Notes under the pieces: model-generated
The model's database searches: none
What the model was told of the DNA's origin: nothing
The model's input: the letters and a program-made list of their open reading frames with translations, nothing else
Position numbers and translations under genes: made by a program
Source of the DNA: a phage
Sequence record: PZ452592.1
Strand: one strand, 5' to 3'
DNA length: 51,359 bases
Shown: positions 35,623 through 51,359 of the stretch, in pieces
How the letters are laid out: each line of letters begins with the position of its first letter
Position numbering within the stretch: the first letter of the stretch is position 1

Positions 35623-37199
35623 CCCAGCAGTATTGGATTGACAAAAATAACACCATTAATCACACAAACATAATTTCTTTCTTCCAGCATTGGCAGCAAG
35701 TGCCCTTCTATCCTCTTCATTACGCCAGCCTGACCAACGAAAGGTTTTACCTTTCTCGCTGATTCGTACAGGGCGCGAATATTCAGGATCCCTTTGTTAG
35801 CCTTGCCGTGCCTCGTGATCAATTCAATCAATTTACCCATTTCAGCATCATCACCAGCATAACCAGAAGCATTGGCGGCGCTAATGTATGTTTTGCTCAA
35901 CTCCTGAAACATGATCAGAGCCTCTTGCATTGTATCTACGTCGATCTCTTTCGACTTCTGCGGGTATCCAGCAGGATTAAACCAGTTGCGTATAACATGC
36001 AGGACGGAAGCAAGCCTGATCACCTGTTTATCCATTTTACCCAGCGCACCGCGTAACATTGTATGAGAATACTTTCCTCCGTCTGCAAGATGCGGTTCCA
36101 TATCCTGGCGAGCAATGTTGAGCACTCGCATAGCTGAACGGCTTATTTTCAGCGATATATTTGATTCGCTCATGATGTTATGCACCAATTGATAATATTG
36201 GGCTTTCAATTCAGAATCCACCGCCTCATAGGTAGAATCACCATTTTCATCAATGAATGAGCGACGGCCTAAGAATGATTCCTCGCGGACCAACAAAAAA
36301 CGCTCACTAACACCGATGCCTCGCGATCCAGCGTCCATTATTCCGCTTATCGTTTCATCCTGGGCTATAACGCTCATACATCCAAGCGCGCGAAAACTCA
36401 TATTATTGTCAGCATTAGCGCGGGCAATTGATACGTGACCATTATCCCACGCCTTAAGCACTAACTCACTGTTAGTCTTCCTTTCGCTATTTGCATAGGT
36501 CAAGCCTAACAGACTGTTAATACTTGTTGCTTCATCAGATATTACGGCAAAGTTACCTTGCTTGTTGTTGATTTTCGCCAAGCCTTCTGGAGTTGTATCT
36601 GAAACAGGAAAAGTTATATCACACATTTTTTCCAGTTTTTCCTCCAGATCCTCTTTTTCCTGGTATAGAGATTCCATATCAGCGCCGGATCTTTCGCTTT
36701 TCATCTCCTTTGCAAGACCTGCCAGCTTTGCCTGTATTTTCTTTCTTTCCTTGCGGCGTTGCTCGTTGATCTTCTCAACTTCCGCAATCATCGGAGCAAT
36801 AGCCATGCTGTTGATCGCAGATTTACCAGTTGACGGCGGCTGGCTTGTAACGACGTAAAGCGCAGTCGGCTGATCGGTTCCGTGATAGTCAACCGTAAAG
36901 CGTCCAAGCATAGCGGCAGAAATGCAGCCGATAAAGTGCATGTAAGCCGATGATTCAGGGAATTGAACGGATCGCGCAATGCTGCGTGATAACTTGCCGA
37001 CAACATCAATATCATTACCAAGAGAAATAACGGGGTAGCGATCGTGACCGCTATTCACATCCTTTACGTCGCCCCAAAAGCTGGACGACTGGCGATAGCC
37101 GTTAGCCTGAATTGATACGCGAACTGGTGAGAGGTTCTGGCTTTCAGCCATAGCGATTATTTGCTGTGGAGTTAATTTGTTCGTTTCTAATGAAAACAT
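35619..37199 (-). CDS. P-loop NTPase (DUF3987-like), putative replication protein
   Basis: 526-aa ORF; P-loop SQPPSTGKSAI; RBS AAGGAG upstream of ATG 37199. Confidence 0.5.
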   Translation of the reverse strand: MFSLETNKLTPQQIIAMAESQNLSPVRVSIQANGYRQSSSFWGDVKDVNSGHDRYPVISLGNDIDVVGKLSRSIARSVQFPESSAYMHFIGCISAAMLGRFTVDYHGTDQPTALYVVTSQPPSTGKSAINSMAIAPMIAEVEKINEQRRKERKKIQAKLAGLAKEMKSERSGADMESLYQEKEDLEEKLEKMCDITFPVSDTTPEGLAKINNKQGNFAVISDEATSINSLLGLTYANSERKTNSELVLKAWDNGHVSIARANADNNMSFRALGCMSVIAQDETISGIMDAGSRGIGVSERFLLVREESFLGRRSFIDENGDSTYEAVDSELKAQYYQLVHNIMSESNISLKISRSAMRVLNIARQDMEPHLADGGKYSHTMLRGALGKMDKQVIRLASVLHVIRNWFNPAGYPQKSKEIDVDTMQEALIMFQELSKTYISAANASGYAGDDAEMGKLIELITRHGKANKGILNIRALYESARKVKPFVGQAGVMKRIEGHLLPMLEERNYVCVINGVIFVNPILLG

Positions 37200-45985: not shown

Positions 45986-46249
45986 ATGGCTAACAAGATC
46001 GAGTTTTTTAAAGCTGTAGACATTATCGACGGCGCGCCTAGCTTCTTTGCTATCCATTCTATTGACGGCAAGGATATTGGGTACAACGTTATCCGTCGAG
46101 ATGGAATCTCAAAACTTAGTGACCTGGTAGGCCATATTGTGTCAAACGGGAAATGCGCATGGCCCGATTCGCCACGAGAGCCACGCCGCCGCGACATGGT
46201 AGAGCCTGTTCTGCTTTACACTCTGGTAGTAGAAGGAGAAAATAAATGA
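45986..46249 (+). CDS. hypothetical protein
   Basis: 87-aa ORF, RBS GAGG. Confidence 0.5.
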   Translation: MANKIEFFKAVDIIDGAPSFFAIHSIDGKDIGYNVIRRDGISKLSDLVGHIVSNGKCAWPDSPREPRRRDMVEPVLLYTLVVEGENK

Positions 46250-46431
46250 TTTGGTTACTTGCTTTTTTGGTTGCTTTTCTCTACATTTCAGGCTTATTTA
46301 CGTTCCGCGCGTTTGTGAAATATTCTGGCACGACAGACAAGGACGATAAAATCGTTCTCGCTTTCTGGTTTGTTTGGGTGTGGTTAGCAATTTACGAGAT
46401 CATCAGAGACAAACAGAAATTTGAGTGGTGA
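46246..46431 (+). CDS. small membrane protein
   Basis: 61 aa, two hydrophobic helices (LLAFLVAFLYISGLF, IVLAFWFVWVWLAIY); ATGA overlap. Confidence 0.5.
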   Translation: MIWLLAFLVAFLYISGLFTFRAFVKYSGTTDKDDKIVLAFWFVWVWLAIYEIIRDKQKFEW

Positions 46432-46490
46432 TTCTTGCTATGGCGCATTCATGCAGTGCGCCATGTTGAGAAAACCTAAAGGGGGAAATG

Positions 46491-46631
46491 ATGCGTAACT
46501 TTGAAAAAATCATTACCAAAAAGAAGCGTCGCGGGTACGATGAGCATGTGGAGTTTGTGAACAAACAGCGCAAGAAGCGCCATAGACGCGAAATGCTGCA
46601 TAATATCAACTCACGCTATGGAGAAAAATAA
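46491..46631 (+). CDS. small basic protein (46 aa)
   Basis: not in ORF track; RBS AAGGGGG upstream; Lys/Arg-rich. Confidence 0.4.
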   Translation: MRNFEKIITKKKRRGYDEHVEFVNKQRKKRHRREMLHNINSRYGEK

Positions 46632-46823
46632 ATGCAATTGCCACCATTTGACAAAAAAAGCGAAGAGATTGCCAAAACTGCATGTCACCTTCGAGAGCTT
46701 GCCGACATGATAGAGCGCGGTCAGGTTATGATTGTCAATATGACGATTAAAAGCGAGAATAGAAATTTCAAGGTTTTAAGCGAGACAACAGAAATTACTG
46801 TGTTGAAAGCAAGGGGAGAATAA
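46632..46823 (+). CDS. hypothetical protein
   Basis: 63-aa ORF starting 1 nt after upstream stop. Confidence 0.5.
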   Translation: MQLPPFDKKSEEIAKTACHLRELADMIERGQVMIVNMTIKSENRNFKVLSETTEITVLKARGE

Positions 46824-46825
46824 TC

Positions 46826-47416
46826 ATGAAACGAGACATTATCATCCTTAATGGGCCGCCAGGTTGCGGGAAGGACACTATTGCAGCTTACCTAACGGGC
46901 CATCGTTACCCTGCTGTCAAGGCGTCATTCAAACAGCCGATGTTCGATATTGCTTTTTCTATGCTGGGCGTGTACCGATACGATGAATTTATGGACCTGT
47001 ATAACGACAGAGAGCAAAAAGAAAAGCCTCAAGTTATCTTAGGCGGCAAGTCACCTAGACAATTCATGATCTGGATTAGCGAGGATGTAATGAAGCCAGT
47101 TTTTGGAGATCACTATTTCGGGCGTCGAATGGTTGAAGAGATTCACGAGATGTACCGAGATTTAGCGGTTGTGATCAGCGATGGAGGATTCCCCGAAGAA
47201 GTCAAGCCGCTTGTTAAGGCAGGGCATGAGGTGCATATTTGCCGATTGCATCGCGACGGCTTCACGTTTGCTGGCGATTCGAGAGACTACATTGACCTGA
47301 GCGGTTATCACTATCGAATCCATCACTATGACTTCCACTTGCAGGACGGCAAGCCGGAACTGGCTGTAAACGAGATCGTCAATGCTGTCAAATGGAAGCA
47401 CACAAAGATTAAATAG
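46826..47416 (+). CDS. P-loop nucleotide kinase (dNMP-kinase-like)
   Basis: N-terminal Walker A MKRDIIILNGPPGCGKDT resembles phage dNMP kinases; RBS AAGGGGAG. Confidence 0.55.
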   Translation: MKRDIIILNGPPGCGKDTIAAYLTGHRYPAVKASFKQPMFDIAFSMLGVYRYDEFMDLYNDREQKEKPQVILGGKSPRQFMIWISEDVMKPVFGDHYFGRRMVEEIHEMYRDLAVVISDGGFPEEVKPLVKAGHEVHICRLHRDGFTFAGDSRDYIDLSGYHYRIHHYDFHLQDGKPELAVNEIVNAVKWKHTKIK

Positions 47417-47456
47417 CACGAATTGCTAAACGCGAGGCGCAATGCCTCGCTATAAT
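47414..47456 (+). promoter_or_regulatory. 19-mer promoter cassette
   Basis: TAGCACGAATTGCTAAAC + 19-nt hairpin GCGAGGCGCAATGCCTCGC + TATAAT. Confidence 0.5.
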
Positions 47457-47486
47457 GCAAACACCAATCAACGAGAGGAAATCACA

Positions 47487-47867
47487 ATGGTTAACATCAG
47501 AAAAATCCGCGTCGGCACTAAATTCTTAGTTACTTACGCAATTCCAGATAGCGGAATGAAGAAGGGCCAGATTGTTAAGGTTGATAGCAAAAGATTTGGA
47601 ATCCCTGGTATCAATGGCTATCTAATCAATAAAGATCTTGGATTCGACGGATTCGCTATCCGTTCGCTTGAGGGTATTGTTGCCACCCTTAAACGAATCA
47701 CCAATCATCGCGGCTGCCCAATCAAGACGATTAAAGCGCCAACCAATTACGGCAAACTGGATAATCGTCGAATCCGCCGCCTGGCGCGTAACGCGTTAAA
47801 ATTCCGTGGCGTAGGCGATGATTTCTACTATGGATACAAGAGGATTGCGCGCAATGCTGGGAAATAA
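47487..47867 (+). CDS. hypothetical protein
   Basis: 126-aa ORF from ATG 47487 with RBS GAGAGGAA (track start 47442 lies in the cassette). Confidence 0.5.
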   Translation: MVNIRKIRVGTKFLVTYAIPDSGMKKGQIVKVDSKRFGIPGINGYLINKDLGFDGFAIRSLEGIVATLKRITNHRGCPIKTIKAPTNYGKLDNRRIRRLARNALKFRGVGDDFYYGYKRIARNAGK

Positions 47868-47966
47868 CAATAACGCAACGAATCCTAAGCCACCTTTTGA
47901 TTTTCATTCCGCAATGATTGCGGTATTATCAATGCTACTTTTTCTTTATAGCATGAGGGCGCCACT

Positions 47967-48215
47967 ATGGTTTTTAACGCATTGAAACGACTGTTTAAGC
48001 TGGAATACCGGATCGTATTTTGCCGCGACTGTTCTACTTATCATGTGCAGCGACGCAGCTTAGGCGGCAATTGGCACTATGTTACAGATGACTTTTTCGG
48101 CATCATTGCCACTGAATTTAAGTGTTATAGCGATGCTTATATGTACGTCAAGAAGCGCCACCGCTTACGCAAGTGTCGTTTTTCCGCACTGATTCACGTT
48201 AATGATTGTTACTGA
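47967..48215 (+). CDS. hypothetical protein (Cys-containing, basic)
   Basis: 82-aa ORF, RBS GAGGG. Confidence 0.5.
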   Translation: MVFNALKRLFKLEYRIVFCRDCSTYHVQRRSLGGNWHYVTDDFFGIIATEFKCYSDAYMYVKKRHRLRKCRFSALIHVNDCY

Positions 48216-48222
48216 GGTGAAA

Positions 48223-48405
48223 ATGAAAACTGGTATTATTATTCTTTTTCTGATCCTTTTCGGCAGCCATTTAACCATTAACTATGAGGGCATTATGGCC
48301 TTTTGGGGCAACTTGATGATGTTTGCCGCTGGTTCAATTGCTGGCTACTCTGACGGGAAAAAGGATGGTGTGCGCAAGATGCTGATGGGGCTTAAACAAA
48401 AATAA
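48223..48405 (+). CDS. small membrane protein
   Basis: 60 aa from ATG 48223 with RBS GAGGTGA; two hydrophobic segments. Confidence 0.5.
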   Translation: MKTGIIILFLILFGSHLTINYEGIMAFWGNLMMFAAGSIAGYSDGKKDGVRKMLMGLKQK

Positions 48406-48416
48406 GGGGATATGAA

Positions 48417-48707
48417 ATGGCAAACAAAACTTACCGCAAACTACTGGTTAACGCTTTTGAAAACATCGCGCAGTGTAACAAGTGGAACGACTCTAAACAC
48501 TCGCCAATCACAATGAAGCGCGCCGGATTCAAAAATGCTCGTTCATGGGCGCGAGCTTTCGCAGCTTGCTATATGCCGGATGGCGGACTAGGGGCGATGA
48601 ACGATTTTTTGATCAACATGATAGAGGAAGCGGCGCGAGAGGATCGGCCGCTGACACAGCGAGATTTTGACGACTTCGCGCGCGATGAGCTTTACTATCT
48701 GAGCTAA
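48417..48707 (+). CDS. hypothetical protein
   Basis: 96-aa ORF, RBS AAGGGGA. Confidence 0.5.
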   Translation: MANKTYRKLLVNAFENIAQCNKWNDSKHSPITMKRAGFKNARSWARAFAACYMPDGGLGAMNDFLINMIEEAAREDRPLTQRDFDDFARDELYYLS

Positions 48708-48750
48708 TAGCACTTTTTGTTAAAACTTCCGCAAGGGCATTTGGTAAAGT
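48708..48750 (+). promoter_or_regulatory. 19-mer promoter cassette
   Basis: TAGCACTTTTTGTTAAAAC + 18 nt + TAAAGT in loop of hairpin AAGGGCA...TGCCCTT. Confidence 0.45.
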
Positions 48751-48782
48751 GCCCTTATTGAAGCGAAACAGAGGAAAGCGCA

Positions 48783-48995
48783 ATGAAAATCAAAATCACC
48801 AAAATCGACACTATCAACGGCGACGGATCAATCACTCTTGAGCAATGTGGCTTGGTTGTTGGTGATGTGCTGGAAGTTGACGGACATTTCAGCGACGGAT
48901 CTTATTGTGTTATTGCGCCGCGCAACAGCGAGTTTATCAAGGCTGGCGACAATATTAGTGTTAACCATGACGAATGCGAGGTAGTAGAAGAATGA
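48783..48995 (+). CDS. hypothetical protein
   Basis: 70-aa ORF, RBS GAGGAAAG. Confidence 0.5.
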   Translation: MKIKITKIDTINGDGSITLEQCGLVVGDVLEVDGHFSDGSYCVIAPRNSEFIKAGDNISVNHDECEVVEE

Positions 48996-49255
48996 TCACG
49001 ATTAACCTGTCAGAGCAGCAAGCGCGCATTATATTAGCGGCCTTTGGCTGGCGAGATGATGACGGCATCCAGGCAACGGTTAAAATTCCTGAGCCAGTGG
49101 CGCGTGAAGTTTTCAGCCAGCTAGAACACGCATTTGATCCTGCTGGGACTGAGCAAGCGGAAACTGCCGCATGGTTCGGAGAGAACGGATACAGAGATCA
49201 GCAAGTCGAAAACTGGAAGCGCATAAACGAGACTATGGAGGAATCAGGTTTATGA
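48992..49255 (+). CDS. hypothetical protein
   Basis: 87-aa ORF from ATG 48992 (ATGA overlap with upstream stop). Confidence 0.5.
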   Translation: MITINLSEQQARIILAAFGWRDDDGIQATVKIPEPVAREVFSQLEHAFDPAGTEQAETAAWFGENGYRDQQVENWKRINETMEESGL

Positions 49256-49566
49256 TTTATATTCACTACTACCAAATCGGAACTAACGAGAACAAGAAAG
49301 AGCATCGTTTCATCCATGATGATTTGGACAAGGCAAAGGCACAGCAACAGGTTTTAGGCGGTGTCATTCAGGCTTTTGAGCCTGTAGAAGATATTGAGTA
49401 CCGCGAGCATTTAAAAGATGTTGTTATTGATGAGATCTCTTGCTTGATTGATGATATGACAAATCACGGCCCTGGTTCCCCGTGGGAAGATGCAGGATCT
49501 GTAACGTGGGATAAGGCCAAAGTTAAGACGCTAAACAACTTTCGAGAGATTCTCGACGGTTTTTAA
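49252..49566 (+). CDS. hypothetical protein
   Basis: 104-aa ORF from ATG 49252 (ATGA overlap; RBS GGAGG upstream). Confidence 0.5.
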   Translation: MIYIHYYQIGTNENKKEHRFIHDDLDKAKAQQQVLGGVIQAFEPVEDIEYREHLKDVVIDEISCLIDDMTNHGPGSPWEDAGSVTWDKAKVKTLNNFREILDGF

Positions 49567-49636
49567 TTAAAAACGCATAGCCGTTAGAGCGCCTAAATCG
49601 CATTCTAACGAGCTATTTTTCTGGTAAGGTGATTTA

Positions 49637-49765
49637 ATGGATGAGTACAAGCAACCTTCGCAATGGTGCAAAGAGAAGCAGGAGGAAGCACTTGAGCGCG
49701 GAGATGTAGAAGAAGCTATGAACTATTTCAAACTTGCGGAAGAATGGAAGGTGAGAGGATACTGA
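49637..49765 (+). CDS. small acidic protein (42 aa)
   Basis: not in ORF track; RBS AAGGTGA 5 nt upstream of ATG 49637; stop overlaps next ATG. Confidence 0.3.
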   Translation: MDEYKQPSQWCKEKQEEALERGDVEEAMNYFKLAEEWKVRGY

Positions 49766-49995
49766 TGTTCGGCATGAACGAGGCGCAATTCAACGCAGCT
49801 AAACGCCAGGCTAAAAAGTGCGGCGAGGCAATGAAAGCGGATGTGGAAAAGCGCGGGAAGTATGTTGATGAAGTAATGAAGGGCATCATTGCAGAACACT
49901 ACCAGCCAATCGCGCCAATGTTGACGATCACTCAATTCATTTGGCTATGTGGTTACTTGCGCGGACGTTGGGGGAACGCTTTCGACAGGGAATGA
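49765..49995 (+). CDS. hypothetical protein
   Basis: 76-aa ORF from ATG 49765 with RBS GGTGAGAGGA. Confidence 0.5.
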   Translation: MFGMNEAQFNAAKRQAKKCGEAMKADVEKRGKYVDEVMKGIIAEHYQPIAPMLTITQFIWLCGYLRGRWGNAFDRE

Positions 49996-50024
49996 TTGAC
50001 AACTCTTTCCTGATTGGTTAGCAT
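49996..50024 (+). promoter_or_regulatory. sigma70-like promoter
   Basis: TTGACA - 17 nt - TAGCAT. Confidence 0.4.
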
Positions 50025-50157
50025 GGCGTCGTTTACATAAGAGCGGCTTTGTCCGAACGCGTGACGCGATAGTCACACAACAACGGCGATATGCAGGAGG
50101 TTTTTGCAATGCAAAATAATCCGTAAGACGTATCGCCTTTTTTAATGGAGATCCAAA

Positions 50158-50391
50158 ATGATTAAATACAAATTAACCGTTTCTTTCCGTGATACCGTTA
50201 TTCATCCTTTCTACAATAGCTTTGTTAACAGCTTTACAGTAGAAGCGACAAAGGATCAGCTTGACGGTGACGAAACTTGCATTTCTATCGGCAATGTTGC
50301 TTATCCGATTCACAACATTACCAGCATTAAGCGTGAGGTTGTCGCTGATGAATTACAAAGTGAAGATGACGATCCGGCGAATGGGGCGTAA
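50158..50391 (+). CDS. hypothetical protein
   Basis: 77-aa ORF, RBS GGAG; preceded by hairpin/U-run leader. Confidence 0.5.
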   Translation: MIKYKLTVSFRDTVIHPFYNSFVNSFTVEATKDQLDGDETCISIGNVAYPIHNITSIKREVVADELQSEDDDPANGA

Positions 50392-50533
50392 TTGCCAATC
50401 ATGCAAACAGGAATATGAATGCGTAGTTGATGCTCTTGATGAACTGGAAGCAGTAGCAAAAGCAAAAGAGCAATCGGGCGCTAATCCTGAAACACATCAA
50501 TTTTCAATTAATCTTGTGAGGGCTTTACAATGA
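50381..50533 (+). CDS. small Cys-rich hypothetical protein (50 aa)
   Basis: ATG 50381 overlapping upstream gene end; CxxC pair (CQSCKQEYEC); weak RBS. Confidence 0.3.
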   Translation: MGRNCQSCKQEYECVVDALDELEAVAKAKEQSGANPETHQFSINLVRALQ

Positions 50534-50754
50534 TCGCATTATCTTTCTGCATTGGTTTTATCATGGCTATCATTATCTTTTCCGTTGTCATGCGCTTTGC
50601 TTATAAGTTCGTGATTAATAAAGGTTGGTACGCTTCTGCAATCTGGAGCGAAAAACAAAAGAAATGGCTTGTCCGTGGTCAATACCTGATGATCGGCAGC
50701 AAGATCCTAAATTCCATTCGAGCCAAAGATGGAAAAGTAAAATATACAGCTTAA
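50530..50754 (+). CDS. small membrane protein
   Basis: 74 aa, N-terminal hydrophobic helix (IALSFCIGFIMAIIIFSVVM); ATGA overlap. Confidence 0.5.
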   Translation: MIALSFCIGFIMAIIIFSVVMRFAYKFVINKGWYASAIWSEKQKKWLVRGQYLMIGSKILNSIRAKDGKVKYTA

Positions 50755-50760
50755 AAATTA

Positions 50761-50782
50761 CCCGCCGCACGGCGGGTTTTTT
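50761..50782 (+). terminator. intrinsic terminator
   Basis: hairpin CCCGCC-GCAC-GGCGGG followed by T6. Confidence 0.75.
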
Positions 50783-50795
50783 ATTGCCCGTTGTC

Positions 50796-50804
50796 TGGTA
50801 TAAT
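50796..50804 (+). promoter_or_regulatory. extended -10 promoter element (TGGTATAAT)
   Basis: TGnTATAAT consensus 28 nt upstream of terS ATG; no clear -35. Confidence 0.45.
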
Positions 50805-50832
50805 CAGGCATCTAACCAAAGGAGGATTAATA

Positions 50833-51359
50833 ATGGCTAAAAATGTTGAGCCTGCTGTAAAGGCATTAAATTTCAAAGAGTTATACAATAAAACTTATGG
50901 CGATATTGTCACGCTAAACAACCGCCACAAGTACACGCCGGAACAGGTTTTTGATATGGCGATCCGCTATTTCACTTGGGCCGAAGAGAATCACATCCAG
51001 GCGGCTGAAACTGCTTCCTTTCAGGGTGACGTGTACGAGAGCAGAGTTTACAAGCCTCGCGTTTTCACGGTTAACGGATTCAGCTTGTATCTCGGCGTGA
51101 CTGAGGCTGCCGTAAGCAAATGGCGTAAAGAGCCTGGATTCTGCGATGTGATGGAGTTTGTTGATAAAGTAATTTACGAGCAAAAATTCCAGCTTGCGGC
51201 AAATAACATGATTAACGCTGGATTTATCGGTAAAGAGATCGGAGTAGAGAAGCCAGCAACAGTGAGCGTTGAAGCGAGCGCGGCAGCTAATGCAAGCATT
51301 GACGCAGTAACTGCCGATGAGGTGAAAGAGGCTGTGATTGATATTCTGGAGCAACTTTA
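50833..51359 (+). CDS. terS: terminase small subunit (3-prime partial in window)
   Basis: ORF from ATG 50833 with RBS AAAGGAGG runs off window end; last 2 nt TA plus nt 1 (A) form TAA overlapping terL ATG. Confidence 0.65.
   Translation, partial: MAKNVEPAVKALNFKELYNKTYGDIVTLNNRHKYTPEQVFDMAIRYFTWAEENHIQAAETASFQGDVYESRVYKPRVFTVNGFSLYLGVTEAAVSKWRKEPGFCDVMEFVDKVIYEQKFQLAANNMINAGFIGKEIGVEKPATVSVEASAAANASIDAVTADEVKEAVIDILEQL

What the first reader, a model, noticed from the sequence alone, without database searches (positions are those of the whole stretch)
49996..50157. Promoter, hairpin-embedded mini-ORF with consensus SD, and U-run upstream of gene 50158 (attenuator-like leader)
TTGACA-17-TAGCAT (49996..50024) is followed by a long inverted repeat GGCGATA (50085..50091) / TATCGCC (50131..50137) whose loop contains AGGAGG (50095..50100) and a tiny ORF (ATG 50091 or 50109 to TAA 50124..50126; MQEVFAMQNNP or MQNNP). 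The stem is followed by T6 (50138..50143) and then the RBS and ATG of the 50158 gene. A leader peptide inside a terminator-like hairpin suggests translation-coupled attenuation.
Basis: partly seen in the sequence, partly recalled or inferred. Interest (0 to 1): 0.4.

Follow-up and report, generated by a model that had tools for sequence, protein, structure and literature searches.

The report
Conserved structured leader RNA with terminator
The flagged spot in this T1-like phage genome is a real promoter followed by a conserved, folded non-coding leader RNA that ends in a terminator hairpin, and the tiny "leader peptide" inside that hairpin looks like a by-product of the RNA fold, not a conserved gene.

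Summary
The window is a complete T1-like coliphage genome (Drexlerviridae, Warwickvirus).

Comparison with about 30 relatives shows a conserved unit. It has a sigma-70 promoter (49996-50024), a roughly 113-nt non-coding RNA with three stem-loops (50044-55, 50061-76, 50085-50137) and a U6 tract. Pairing is kept in 98% of cells, 10-13 pairs show compensatory changes, and 0 of 500 shuffles reach this.

A recognisable homologue lies at the same place, a few small genes upstream of terS, in T1, Tls, W011D and CS01. It matches no Rfam family.

The AGGAGG and mini-ORF lie in an apical extension that evolves as a helix, not as a coding sequence:
- The extension is missing in about half of the relatives.
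- Pocis76 and Tls keep the helix but have no ATG.
- The close relative Poky has ATG changed to ACG.

T1, Tls, W011D and Pocis76 have no U-run, so the terminator is specific to this lineage.

Best reading: a promoter-proximal intrinsic terminator built into a conserved structured leader. It would give a short RNA and limit read-through into a promoterless three-gene cassette. Leader-peptide attenuation is not supported. The function of the conserved core is unknown.

The parts
49996..50024 (+). Sigma-70-type promoter: -35 TTGACA (49996-50001), 17-nt spacer, -35/-10 partner TAGCAT (50019-50024). It starts right after the TGA stop (49993-95) of the upstream gene.
   Evidence: Best promoter match in 46000-51359 (10/12). 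TTGAC-N17/18-TAnnnT is kept in Warwick-, Hanriver-, Henuseptima-, Tls-, Changchun-, Tuna-, Kyungwon-, Weber-, Rtp- and Rogunavirus relatives while the spacer diverges. Activity is inferred, not shown.
50031..50043 (+). Predicted 5' end of the RNA (start near G50031, inferred from distance to the -10) and a conserved unpaired segment GUUUACAUAAGAG.
   Evidence: Conservation begins 7-8 nt after the -10 in all lineages, with consensus CGU..ACA.A(A/C)GAG. The start site is inferred only.
50044..50055 (+). Stem-loop 1 (CGG(C)/(U)CCG). It is weak in this phage and 4-5 bp in relatives.
   Evidence: Compensatory changes: CGGC/GCCG, CAGC/GCUG, GCGC/GCGC, GCUC/GAGC, GCCAC/GUGGC. RNAalifold predicts it independently.
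50061..50076 (+). Stem-loop 2: GUGAC-GCGAUA-GUCAC, a 5-bp stem with a conserved hexaloop. It is preceded by the conserved linker GAACG (50055-59).
   Evidence: 100% of cells are paired. The stem reads GUGAC/GUCAC, GUGGC/GCCAC, GUAGC/GCUAC, GUGAG/CUCAC, GCAGC/GCUGC, GCGGC/GCCGC in different lineages.
50085..50137 (+). Stem-loop 3, a composite hairpin. Basal stem 50085-93/50129-37; conserved 3' internal-loop segment UAAGA (50124-28); middle helix 50094, 50096-98 with 50120-23; 3x3 internal loop GGU/UAA (50099-101 and 50117-119); apical helix 50102-07/50111-16; loop AAU 50108-10.
   Evidence: -20.9 kcal/mol, z -4.0. Compensatory changes occur in the basal stem (A-U to C-G, A-U to G-C) and in 4 of 6 apical pairs. 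The CCGUAAG motif recurs near the 3' end of the leader in T1, Tls, W011D, Rtp and C119.
50138..50143 (+). U6 tract directly after the GGCG/CGCC base of stem-loop 3. With that stem-loop it forms an intrinsic-terminator-like unit.
   Evidence: A T-run follows the hairpin in Warwick-, Hanriver- and Henuseptimavirus relatives whatever gene follows. It is absent in Pocis76, T1, phi2457T, Tls and W011D. Termination itself is inferred.
50095..50126 (+). SD-like AGGAGG (50095-100) and mini-ORF ATG 50109 to TAA 50126 (MQNNP), inside the apical part of stem-loop 3. Judged incidental to the fold.
   Evidence: GGA of the 'SD' pairs with UCC 50120-22. GG sits in the conserved GGU/UAA internal loop. The G of the ATG is in the apical stem. 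The ORF is not conserved.
50147..50391 (+). First downstream gene (SD GGAG 50147-50, ATG 50158, 77 aa, no family match). Only 14 nt separate it from the U-tract, so it depends on read-through.
   Evidence: The gene after the leader differs among relatives (mosaic boundary at the end of the hairpin).
50158..50754 (+). Small-gene cassette downstream of the leader: 77 aa; 61 aa (phrog_2919, 50348-50533); 74 aa (DUF7299, 50530-50754).
50760..50804 (+). End of the transcription unit: a strong intrinsic terminator (50760-50783 including the T-run), then an extended -10 promoter TGGTATAAT (50796-50804) for terS (ATG 50833).
   Evidence: The same pair is conserved before terS in 11 other Drexlerviridae.

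Best explanation
The locus is a non-coding, structured leader RNA, conserved across T1-like phages, and it sits behind its own sigma-70 promoter. In this lineage (Warwick-, Hanriver- and Henuseptimavirus) its last stem-loop has a G+C-rich base followed by U6. RNA polymerase starting at about 50031, and polymerase arriving from the upstream genes, would therefore often stop at about 50141-50145. That would release a roughly 113-nt three-hairpin RNA.

Only polymerases that read through would transcribe the promoterless three-gene cassette 50158-50754, which ends at a second terminator in front of the terS promoter. The hairpin thus works as a promoter-proximal attenuator.

Read-through could be set by a competing pairing. 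The 3' arm of stem-loop 1 (GUCCG; GCCG in relatives) can pair with CGGC at the start of the terminator's 5' arm. That pairing would be favoured if something holds the conserved 5' segment.

The AGGAGG and the 5-codon ORF are by-products of a purine-rich helix strand and a 3-nt loop. They are not a leader peptide.

Shown here: the sequence features, the fold stability, the covariation, the family-wide conservation, and the non-conservation of the ORF. Inferred: promoter activity, the start site, termination, and any switch or factor.
For: - The coordinates and the fold are confirmed.
- Covariation in 20 Tempevirinae leaders: 98.5% of cells paired, 10 pairs with double changes, 0 of 500 shuffles as high, slid controls at most 1.
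- Covariation in 16 lineages including T1, Tls, W011D and CS01: 98.4% paired, 13 of 22 pairs with double changes, 0 of 500 shuffles (this alignment is fitted to the model).
- RNAalifold finds the same three helices on its own.
- The covariance model finds one copy in the window (105.7 bits). It also finds homologues in the same gap upstream of terS in T1, phi2457T, W011D, CS01 and Tls (E 1e-4 to 2e-7).
- Indels of 1, 2 and 17 nt among relatives rule out coding on either strand.
- The hairpin plus T-run is kept while the downstream gene changes.
- There are only 14 nt and no promoter between U6 and the next ATG.
- The pre-terminator fold contains the stem-loop-1/terminator-arm pairing in 5 of 8 lineages.
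Against: - There are no transcript data, and no T1-family transcriptomics turned up in the held library.
- The hairpin is 53 nt and branched, which is atypical for intrinsic terminators. The simple terminator scan does not call it.
- T1, phi2457T, Tls, W011D and Pocis76 keep the leader without a U-run. Termination therefore cannot be the ancestral role of the conserved core, and that role remains unknown.
- The proposed competing helix is only 4-5 bp. It is supported by wobble-compatible changes only, not by double changes.
- Many unpaired segments are conserved. This hints at a bound factor or a tertiary fold that the model does not identify.
Confidence: 0.6

Rival explanations
1. Translation of the mini-ORF (or 30S binding to AGGAGG-N8-AUG) inside the nascent hairpin keeps the basal stem from forming. 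Termination would then depend on translation, as in leader-peptide attenuation.
For: - A perfect SD at 8-nt spacing from an AUG. The same pattern marks four real gene starts in this genome.
- A 30S footprint of about 50089-50127 would leave only 4 basal pairs.
- SD, ATG and stop are all kept in the grams/JLBYU09 group despite four substitutions.
Against: - The insert is absent in about half of the leader-bearing phages.
- Pocis76 and Tls keep the apical helix without an ATG.
- Poky has ATG changed to ACG.
- Substitutions are compensatory or wobble for the helix and non-synonymous for the peptide.
- GGA of the SD and the G of the AUG are base-paired.
- There is no pause hairpin, no regulatory codon run conserved among relatives, and no overlap of the ORF with a competing segment.
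- One chance SD-ATG is expected in the window (1.37).
Confidence: 0.07
2. A stand-alone trans-acting small RNA gene: promoter, roughly 113-nt RNA, terminator with U-tail. Its conserved unpaired segments would pair with host or phage mRNAs, or titrate a protein. This is not exclusive of the best explanation.
For: - It has its own conserved promoter and a terminator with U6-U9.
- Conservation starts exactly at the predicted 5' end.
- The element stays the same while the downstream gene is swapped.
Against: - T1, Tls, W011D and Pocis76 have no terminator, so there the RNA is a 5' UTR unless it is processed.
- No complementarity to the phage genome beyond shuffled seeds: best -16.5 kcal/mol against a shuffled mean of -20.3.
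- Host targets were not testable.
Confidence: 0.2
3. A processive antitermination element, put-like (RNA alone) or nut-like (recruiting a phage protein). It would make polymerase from this promoter read through the terminator hairpin, the terminator at 50760 and later terminators in the structural operon.
For: - Two small conserved hairpins lie directly downstream of a promoter, upstream of conserved terminators.
- Stem-loop 2 is a 5-bp stem with a conserved G...A hexaloop, reminiscent of boxB.
- T1 late genes are split by terminators (PMC11447400).
Against: - No similarity to HK022 put. The model's best hit in HK022 is 9.9 bits, E 0.76, and lies just after the Q gene (36211-36834).
- boxA (CGCUCUUA) is present only as a reverse complement and is not conserved in T1.
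- terS has its own conserved extended -10 promoter right after the 50760 terminator, so antitermination is not needed for late genes.
- Upstream transcripts would carry the same RNA.
- No N- or Q-like neighbour was recognised.
Confidence: 0.08
4. An RNA processing or stability element. The long irregular hairpin would be an RNase III-type site (as in T7 early mRNAs) or a protective end structure for the flanking mRNAs, and the U-run would be secondary.
For: The long form is a rod of about 22 pair-equivalents with an asymmetric internal loop (UAAGA), which resembles T7 RNase III sites (resemblance from memory). The hairpin is conserved in phages that lack the U-run.
Against: The short forms have only about 13 bp, too short for RNase III. 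This reading does not explain stem-loops 1 and 2, the conserved 5' segment or the conserved promoter.
Confidence: 0.08
5. A chance combination of a promoter-like match, an inverted repeat and a T-run, with no function.
For: The promoter match alone is not above chance. The 136-nt fold has z of only -1.8.
Against: Covariation, single-copy model hits in syntenic gaps across subfamilies, and hairpin z of -4.0.
Confidence: 0.02

Closest known systems
Lambdoid late leader PR'-tR' (constitutive '6S' RNA, read through with Q)
   Same: A sigma-70 promoter is followed within about 110-190 nt by an intrinsic terminator, so a short structured RNA is the default product. It lies upstream of the packaging and structural genes.
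   Different: No Q-like gene was recognised next to it. The leader feeds a three-gene cassette that ends at another terminator, and terS has its own promoter. T1 and Tls lack the terminator. No -10-like pause element with T at position 6 is seen in the initial transcribed region (reading).
Ribosome-mediated (leader-peptide) attenuators: trp, his, pyrBI
   Same: Promoter, leader, terminator and then genes. A possible 1:2 / 2:3 / 3:4 topology exists: CGGC 50044-47, GUCCG 50051-55, CGGC 50084-87, CGCC 50134-37.
   Different: The only ORF sits inside the terminator loop, does not cover segment 1 and is not conserved. The competing helix is 4-5 bp.
HK022 put RNAs (cis-acting antiterminator RNAs)
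   Same: Stem-loops transcribed immediately downstream of a phage promoter. Function would reside in the nascent RNA.
   Different: put is about 70 nt with two long stems (PMC9378689). Here the first two stems are 12 and 16 nt. There is no model hit in HK022.
Terminator-ended bacterial or phage small RNAs (Hfq-type architecture)
   Same: Own promoter, about 100-nt RNA, 3' hairpin with U6-U9, conserved 5' end.
   Different: The terminator is missing in several genera. Several conserved unpaired segments are present instead of one seed. No target was found in the phage genome.
T7-type RNase III processing hairpins
   Same: An intergenic irregular hairpin with an asymmetric internal loop between two helical segments (long form).
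   Different: The short forms are too short. A U-tract and promoter are attached. The resemblance is from memory and was not tested.

Membership tests
Leader-peptide transcription attenuator (trp/his/pyrBI type) | Translated leader ORF conserved among relatives | tested here: not met
   The insert carrying SD and ATG is in about 66 of 131 relatives. There is no ATG in Pocis76 or Tls. Poky has ATG changed to ACG. Peptide changes N to Y and N to D track the helix.
Leader-peptide transcription attenuator (trp/his/pyrBI type) | Leader ORF overlaps the segment whose occupancy decides between antiterminator and terminator | tested here: not met
   The ORF 50109-50126 lies inside the terminator hairpin. 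No ORF covers 50031-50060.
Leader-peptide transcription attenuator (trp/his/pyrBI type) | Mutually exclusive antiterminator and terminator structures | tested here: inconclusive
   A 4-5 bp pairing of the stem-loop 1 3' arm with the start of the terminator's 5' arm appears in pre-terminator folds of 5 of 8 lineages. No double compensatory change supports it.
Leader-peptide transcription attenuator (trp/his/pyrBI type) | Intrinsic terminator just upstream of the regulated genes | tested here: met
   GGCG/CGCC stem base plus U6, 14 nt before ATG 50158.
Intrinsic (Rho-independent) terminator | Stable G+C-rich stem immediately followed by a U-tract | tested here: met
   -20.9 kcal/mol, z -4.0. The 9-bp basal stem ends in GGCG/CGCC and U6 follows directly. 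The T-run is conserved in three genera.
Intrinsic (Rho-independent) terminator | Compact hairpin (stem about 5-14 bp, loop 3-8 nt) | tested here: not met
   53-nt branched hairpin (36 nt in short forms). The consensus scan does not call it.
Intrinsic (Rho-independent) terminator | RNA 3' ends in the U-tract | not testable with these tools
   No transcript data are available.
Trans-acting small RNA gene | Own promoter and own terminator in all members | tested here: not met
   The promoter is conserved everywhere. The terminator is absent in T1, phi2457T, Tls, W011D and Pocis76.
Trans-acting small RNA gene | Conserved seed complementary to a target | tested here: inconclusive
   No phage target better than shuffled seeds. 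Host targets were not tested.
HK022 put antiterminator RNA | Sequence and structure similarity to putL/putR | tested here: not met
   Model R1 on the HK022 genome gives a best hit of 9.9 bits, E 0.76, just downstream of the Q gene. The stems are far shorter than the roughly 70-nt put.
Lambda-type nut site | boxA (CGCUCUUA) on the transcript upstream of a boxB hairpin | tested here: not met
   Only the reverse complement TAAGAGCG is present at 50038-45, and it is not conserved in T1.
Lambdoid PR'-tR' late leader | Q-type antiterminator gene upstream, with the leader feeding the late operon directly | tested here: not met
   The upstream neighbours are phrog_1312 and phrog_303, both of unknown function. 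A second terminator and a separate terS promoter intervene.
Any Rfam 15 family | Covariance-model match | tested here: not met
   No match to 49996-50150 even at E up to 10. There is none in the homologous leaders of T1, W011D, CS01, Rtp, Tls or C119 at E up to 1.

The most novel reading that the evidence does not exclude
The conserved leader (5' segment, two small hairpins, CCGUAAG-bearing terminal hairpin) could be an undescribed regulatory RNA class of the T1 family. It would sense a trans-acting factor, a phage or host protein or RNA that binds the conserved 5' segment, and switch between termination and read-through (or, in T1, control translation or stability) of the small-gene cassette just upstream of the packaging genes. 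That would be the first defined gene-regulatory element of a classic phage whose regulation is still unknown.
Probability: 0.25. Interest if true: 0.6.

Novelty: new member of a known kind. Interest (0 to 1): 0.42.

Why it matters
T1-like phages (Drexlerviridae) are abundant and widely isolated. They use only the host RNA polymerase, yet how they control their genes is essentially unknown. A 2024 re-annotation of TLS lists only three promoters and does not list this one (PMC11447400).

A promoter plus structured RNA that is conserved from Warwickvirus to T1, with clear covariation and no Rfam family, gives a concrete and testable handle on that regulation. It is also a candidate new RNA family.

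For annotation, the result shows that the unannotated 130-460-nt gap upstream of terS is not empty. It also suggests that CDSs drawn through it, such as pSf-1 gp57, are probably over-extended.

Tried and rejected
- Rfam at permissive thresholds on the window and on six relatives found nothing at the leader.
- ARAGORN found no tRNA or tmRNA here.
- A loose 16-base pattern scan of IMG/VR returned mostly chance hits. A strict 24-base pattern gave 10 T1-like contigs and none in 185,579 bacterial or archaeal genomes.
- Put-likeness was tested with the covariance model on the whole HK022 genome and was negative.
- A trans target in the phage genome was sought by duplex scan with the 5' segment and with the CCGUAAG segment. 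Neither beat shuffled seeds.
- Neighbouring proteins searched against PHROGs and Pfam (seven proteins), and two of them against PDB sequences, all have unknown function.
- A hairpin enclosing the -10 is strong in IMG L087, Tls, Pocis76 and C119 but absent in this window (z +0.7). It is not part of this locus.
- I considered lambda boxA because TAAGAGCG is its reverse complement. It is on the wrong strand and not conserved, so I rejected it.
- Five literature searches for T1-family transcription or small RNAs found no transcript data.
- The minus-strand ORF 49945-50109 (54 aa) was rejected because relatives differ there by indels that are not multiples of three.

Full report
**What the window is.** A 1.2-kb stretch around the finding (49600-50800) is 99% identical to Warwickvirus coliphages such as swan01, tonn and JLBYU01 (Drexlerviridae, Tempevirinae). 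The window is a whole, circularly permuted genome opened at the terL start codon. The terS stop codon spans the junction. The finding lies in a 162-nt unannotated gap between a 76-aa gene (phrog_303) and a 77-aa gene. That gap is three small genes upstream of terS.

**Check of the observation.** Every coordinate is right: TTGACA-17-TAGCAT at 49996-50024, GGCGATA/TATCGCC, AGGAGG at 50095-50100, ATG at 50091 and 50109, TAA at 50124-26, T6 at 50138-43, and GGAG plus ATG 50158.
- Folding extends the basal stem to 9 bp. It also shows that the supposed loop is folded into a middle helix, a 3x3 GGU/UAA internal loop and a 6-bp apical helix with a 3-nt loop.
- The hairpin is far more stable than shuffles (-20.9 kcal/mol, z -4.0, 0 of 200).
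- The promoter match alone is not above chance (14 matches of at least 10/12 in the window against 13.6 in shuffles).
- AGGAGG-N5-9-ATG occurs 5 times against 1.37 expected, and the other four are real gene starts.

**Close relatives.** I collected the homologous gap from about 30 GenBank and IMG/VR phages.
- The promoter hexamers, two small upstream hairpins and the big hairpin are conserved. Length differences of 1, 2 and 17 nt exclude coding on either strand.
- On 20 distinct Tempevirinae sequences my three-hairpin structure is paired in 98.5% of cells, with 10 pairs changed on both sides. No shuffle out of 500 reaches this, and slid controls give at most 1 such pair.
- RNAalifold finds the same helices without my input.
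- A covariance model built from the alignment finds one copy in the window (105.7 bits; next best 13 bits).

**Fate of the mini-ORF.** The 17 extra nucleotides that create AGGAGG, the ATG and the frame to TAA form the apical part of the hairpin.
- They are present in about 66 of the 131 GenBank phages that carry the leader. They are absent from most Hanrivervirus and Henuseptimavirus genomes.
- Where present, they evolve as a helix. The grams/JLBYU09 group has a U-A to A-U swap, which changes Asn to Tyr. Kalemo has A to G, which keeps a G.U pair and changes Asn to Asp. Pocis76 keeps all six apical pairs with three of them changed on both sides, but has no ATG. Tls has the same small hairpin with AUU in the loop.
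- Poky, a close Warwickvirus relative, has ATG50109 changed to ACG.
- GGA of the 'SD' pairs with UCC 50120-22. The following GG sits in a GGU/UAA internal loop that is conserved in all long forms.
- The longer ORF from ATG 50091 has no SD and is in another frame or open-ended in relatives.
- The ribosome-binding look is therefore best explained as a purine-rich helix strand next to a loop that happens to read AUG.

**The wider family.** Every Drexlerviridae genome I looked at has an unannotated gap of 130-460 nt at the same place.
- The model finds significant homologues there in T1, phi2457T, W011D, CS01 and Tls (E 1e-4 to 2e-7). By eye the same plan is visible in Skenny, Rtp and C119.
- The shared plan starts with TTGAC-N17/18-TAnnnT (usually right after the upstream gene's stop) and a conserved 5' segment beginning 7-8 nt after the -10. 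Then come hairpin 1 (variable sequence), the AACG linker and hairpin 2 (5 bp with a GCGAUA-like loop). A variable middle and a terminal hairpin carrying CCGUAA(G) complete it.
- Across 16 lineages, 13 of 22 pairs show double changes and 98.4% of cells are paired (this alignment is fitted to the model).
- T1, phi2457T, Tls, W011D and Pocis76 have no U-run after the terminal hairpin. The terminator is therefore a feature of the Warwick/Hanriver/Henuseptima lineages, grafted onto an older leader.
- Rtp and C119 carry a tRNA gene in the same gap.

**Context.**
- There is no terminator between the upstream gene and the promoter, so upstream transcripts also enter the leader.
- Only 14 nt separate U6 from ATG 50158, so the cassette 50158-50754 depends on read-through.
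- The cassette ends at a strong terminator (50760-83). An extended -10 promoter TGGTATAAT for terS follows directly. This pair is conserved in 11 other family members.
- The unit 'promoter, leader, small genes, terminator' is therefore self-contained, and the late genes have their own promoter.

**Most likely mechanism.** The hairpin plus U6 acts as a promoter-proximal intrinsic terminator. It would yield a roughly 113-nt RNA and throttle expression of the cassette. Read-through is needed, because the downstream genes are intact and have no promoter.
- One way to modulate it is visible in the sequence. The 3' arm of hairpin 1 can pair either with its own 5' arm (CGGC 50044-47) or with CGGC at 50084-87, the start of the terminator arm. 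This alternative appears in the pre-terminator minimum-energy fold of 5 of 8 lineages.
- A factor holding the conserved 5' segment would favour read-through. This step is inference. The helix is short and no double compensatory change supports it.
- What the conserved core does in phages without the U-run is unknown.

**Rivals.**
- Ribosome-dependent antitermination through the mini-ORF is physically possible, since a 30S footprint would leave only four basal pairs. The comparative data above argue against it (confidence 0.07).
- A trans-acting small RNA is compatible with the anatomy in this lineage, but not in T1 or Tls. No phage target beats shuffled seeds (confidence 0.2; not exclusive of the best explanation).
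- A put- or nut-like antitermination element is unsupported. There is no hit in HK022, boxA is present only on the wrong strand, and terS has its own promoter.
- An RNase III or stability element fits only the long form.

**Known or new.**
- No Rfam 15 family matches.
- None of the fetched records annotates anything in the gap (for example 'none' under the match).
- The 2024 TLS re-annotation predicts promoters P01, P51 and P57 only, and says that the regulation of T1-like phages is unresolved.
- I could not read the 2004 T1 genome paper.
- I file the locus as a new member of a known kind, a structured leader with an intrinsic terminator. It may also be a new regulatory RNA class.

**Verdict.** The 'attenuator-like leader' is partly right. 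The leader-peptide mechanism is not supported. Interest is moderate (0.42), mainly because of the family-wide conserved RNA, not the mini-ORF.

Noticed in passing
window 50760-50804: A strong intrinsic terminator (ACCCGCCGCACGGCGGGT plus T6) is directly followed by an extended -10 promoter TGGTATAAT in front of terS (ATG 50833). The same terminator-promoter pair precedes terS in T1, phi2457T, Skenny, Tls, W011D, CS01, Rtp, C119, pSf-1, Pocis76 and Jahat.
   Followed up: partly
window 51358-51359 joined to 1: The window is a complete circularly permuted phage genome opened at the terL ATG. The terS stop codon TAA spans the window junction and overlaps the terL start.
   Followed up: partly
L159 1548-1621 (Rtp); L161 2097-2169 (C119); L157 1705-1898 (CS01): In Rtp and C119 the homologous gap downstream of the leader holds a tRNA gene (Rfam 65 and 58 bits; Arg by my reading of the anticodon loop). 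The 379-nt gap of CS01 gives only sub-threshold tmRNA-like matches (E 0.009-0.065).
   Followed up: no
L087 10396-10444; L160 about 1497-1545 (Tls); L023 about 1207-1255 (Pocis76); L161 about 1867-1915 (C119): In several relatives the -10 of the leader promoter lies inside a strong inverted repeat of differing sequence (z -2.2 to -4.4). This could be an operator, or a hairpin in read-through transcripts. It is absent in this window (z +0.7).
   Followed up: partly
L013 974-1276 (pSf-1 gp57); L017 972-1274 (slyngel_6): These annotated CDSs start at a TTG inside hairpin 2 and run through the terminator hairpin into the downstream gene. They are probably over-extended annotations.
   Followed up: no
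window 50038-50045: TAAGAGCG is the exact reverse complement of lambda boxA (CGCTCTTA). It is on the non-transcribed sense and is not conserved in T1, so it is probably chance.
   Followed up: yes
L012, L021, L024 (GenBank MG065636, MG065640, MG065641): Records named 'Campylobacter phage' (UNVERIFIED; host C. jejuni) are Hanrivervirus genomes that carry this coliphage leader. The host label looks doubtful.
   Followed up: no
window 49542-49565: A weak terminator-like hairpin (TCGAGAGATTCTCGA followed by CGGTTTTTAA) overlaps the end of ORF 49171-49566, ahead of the two small genes that precede the leader.
   Followed up: no
window 49765-49995 and homologues (T1 gp59, Rtp15): The 76-aa phrog_303 protein is always encoded just upstream of the leader (one gene removed in T1) while the downstream gene varies. 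This could be a functional link. No family or structure match was found.
   Followed up: partly
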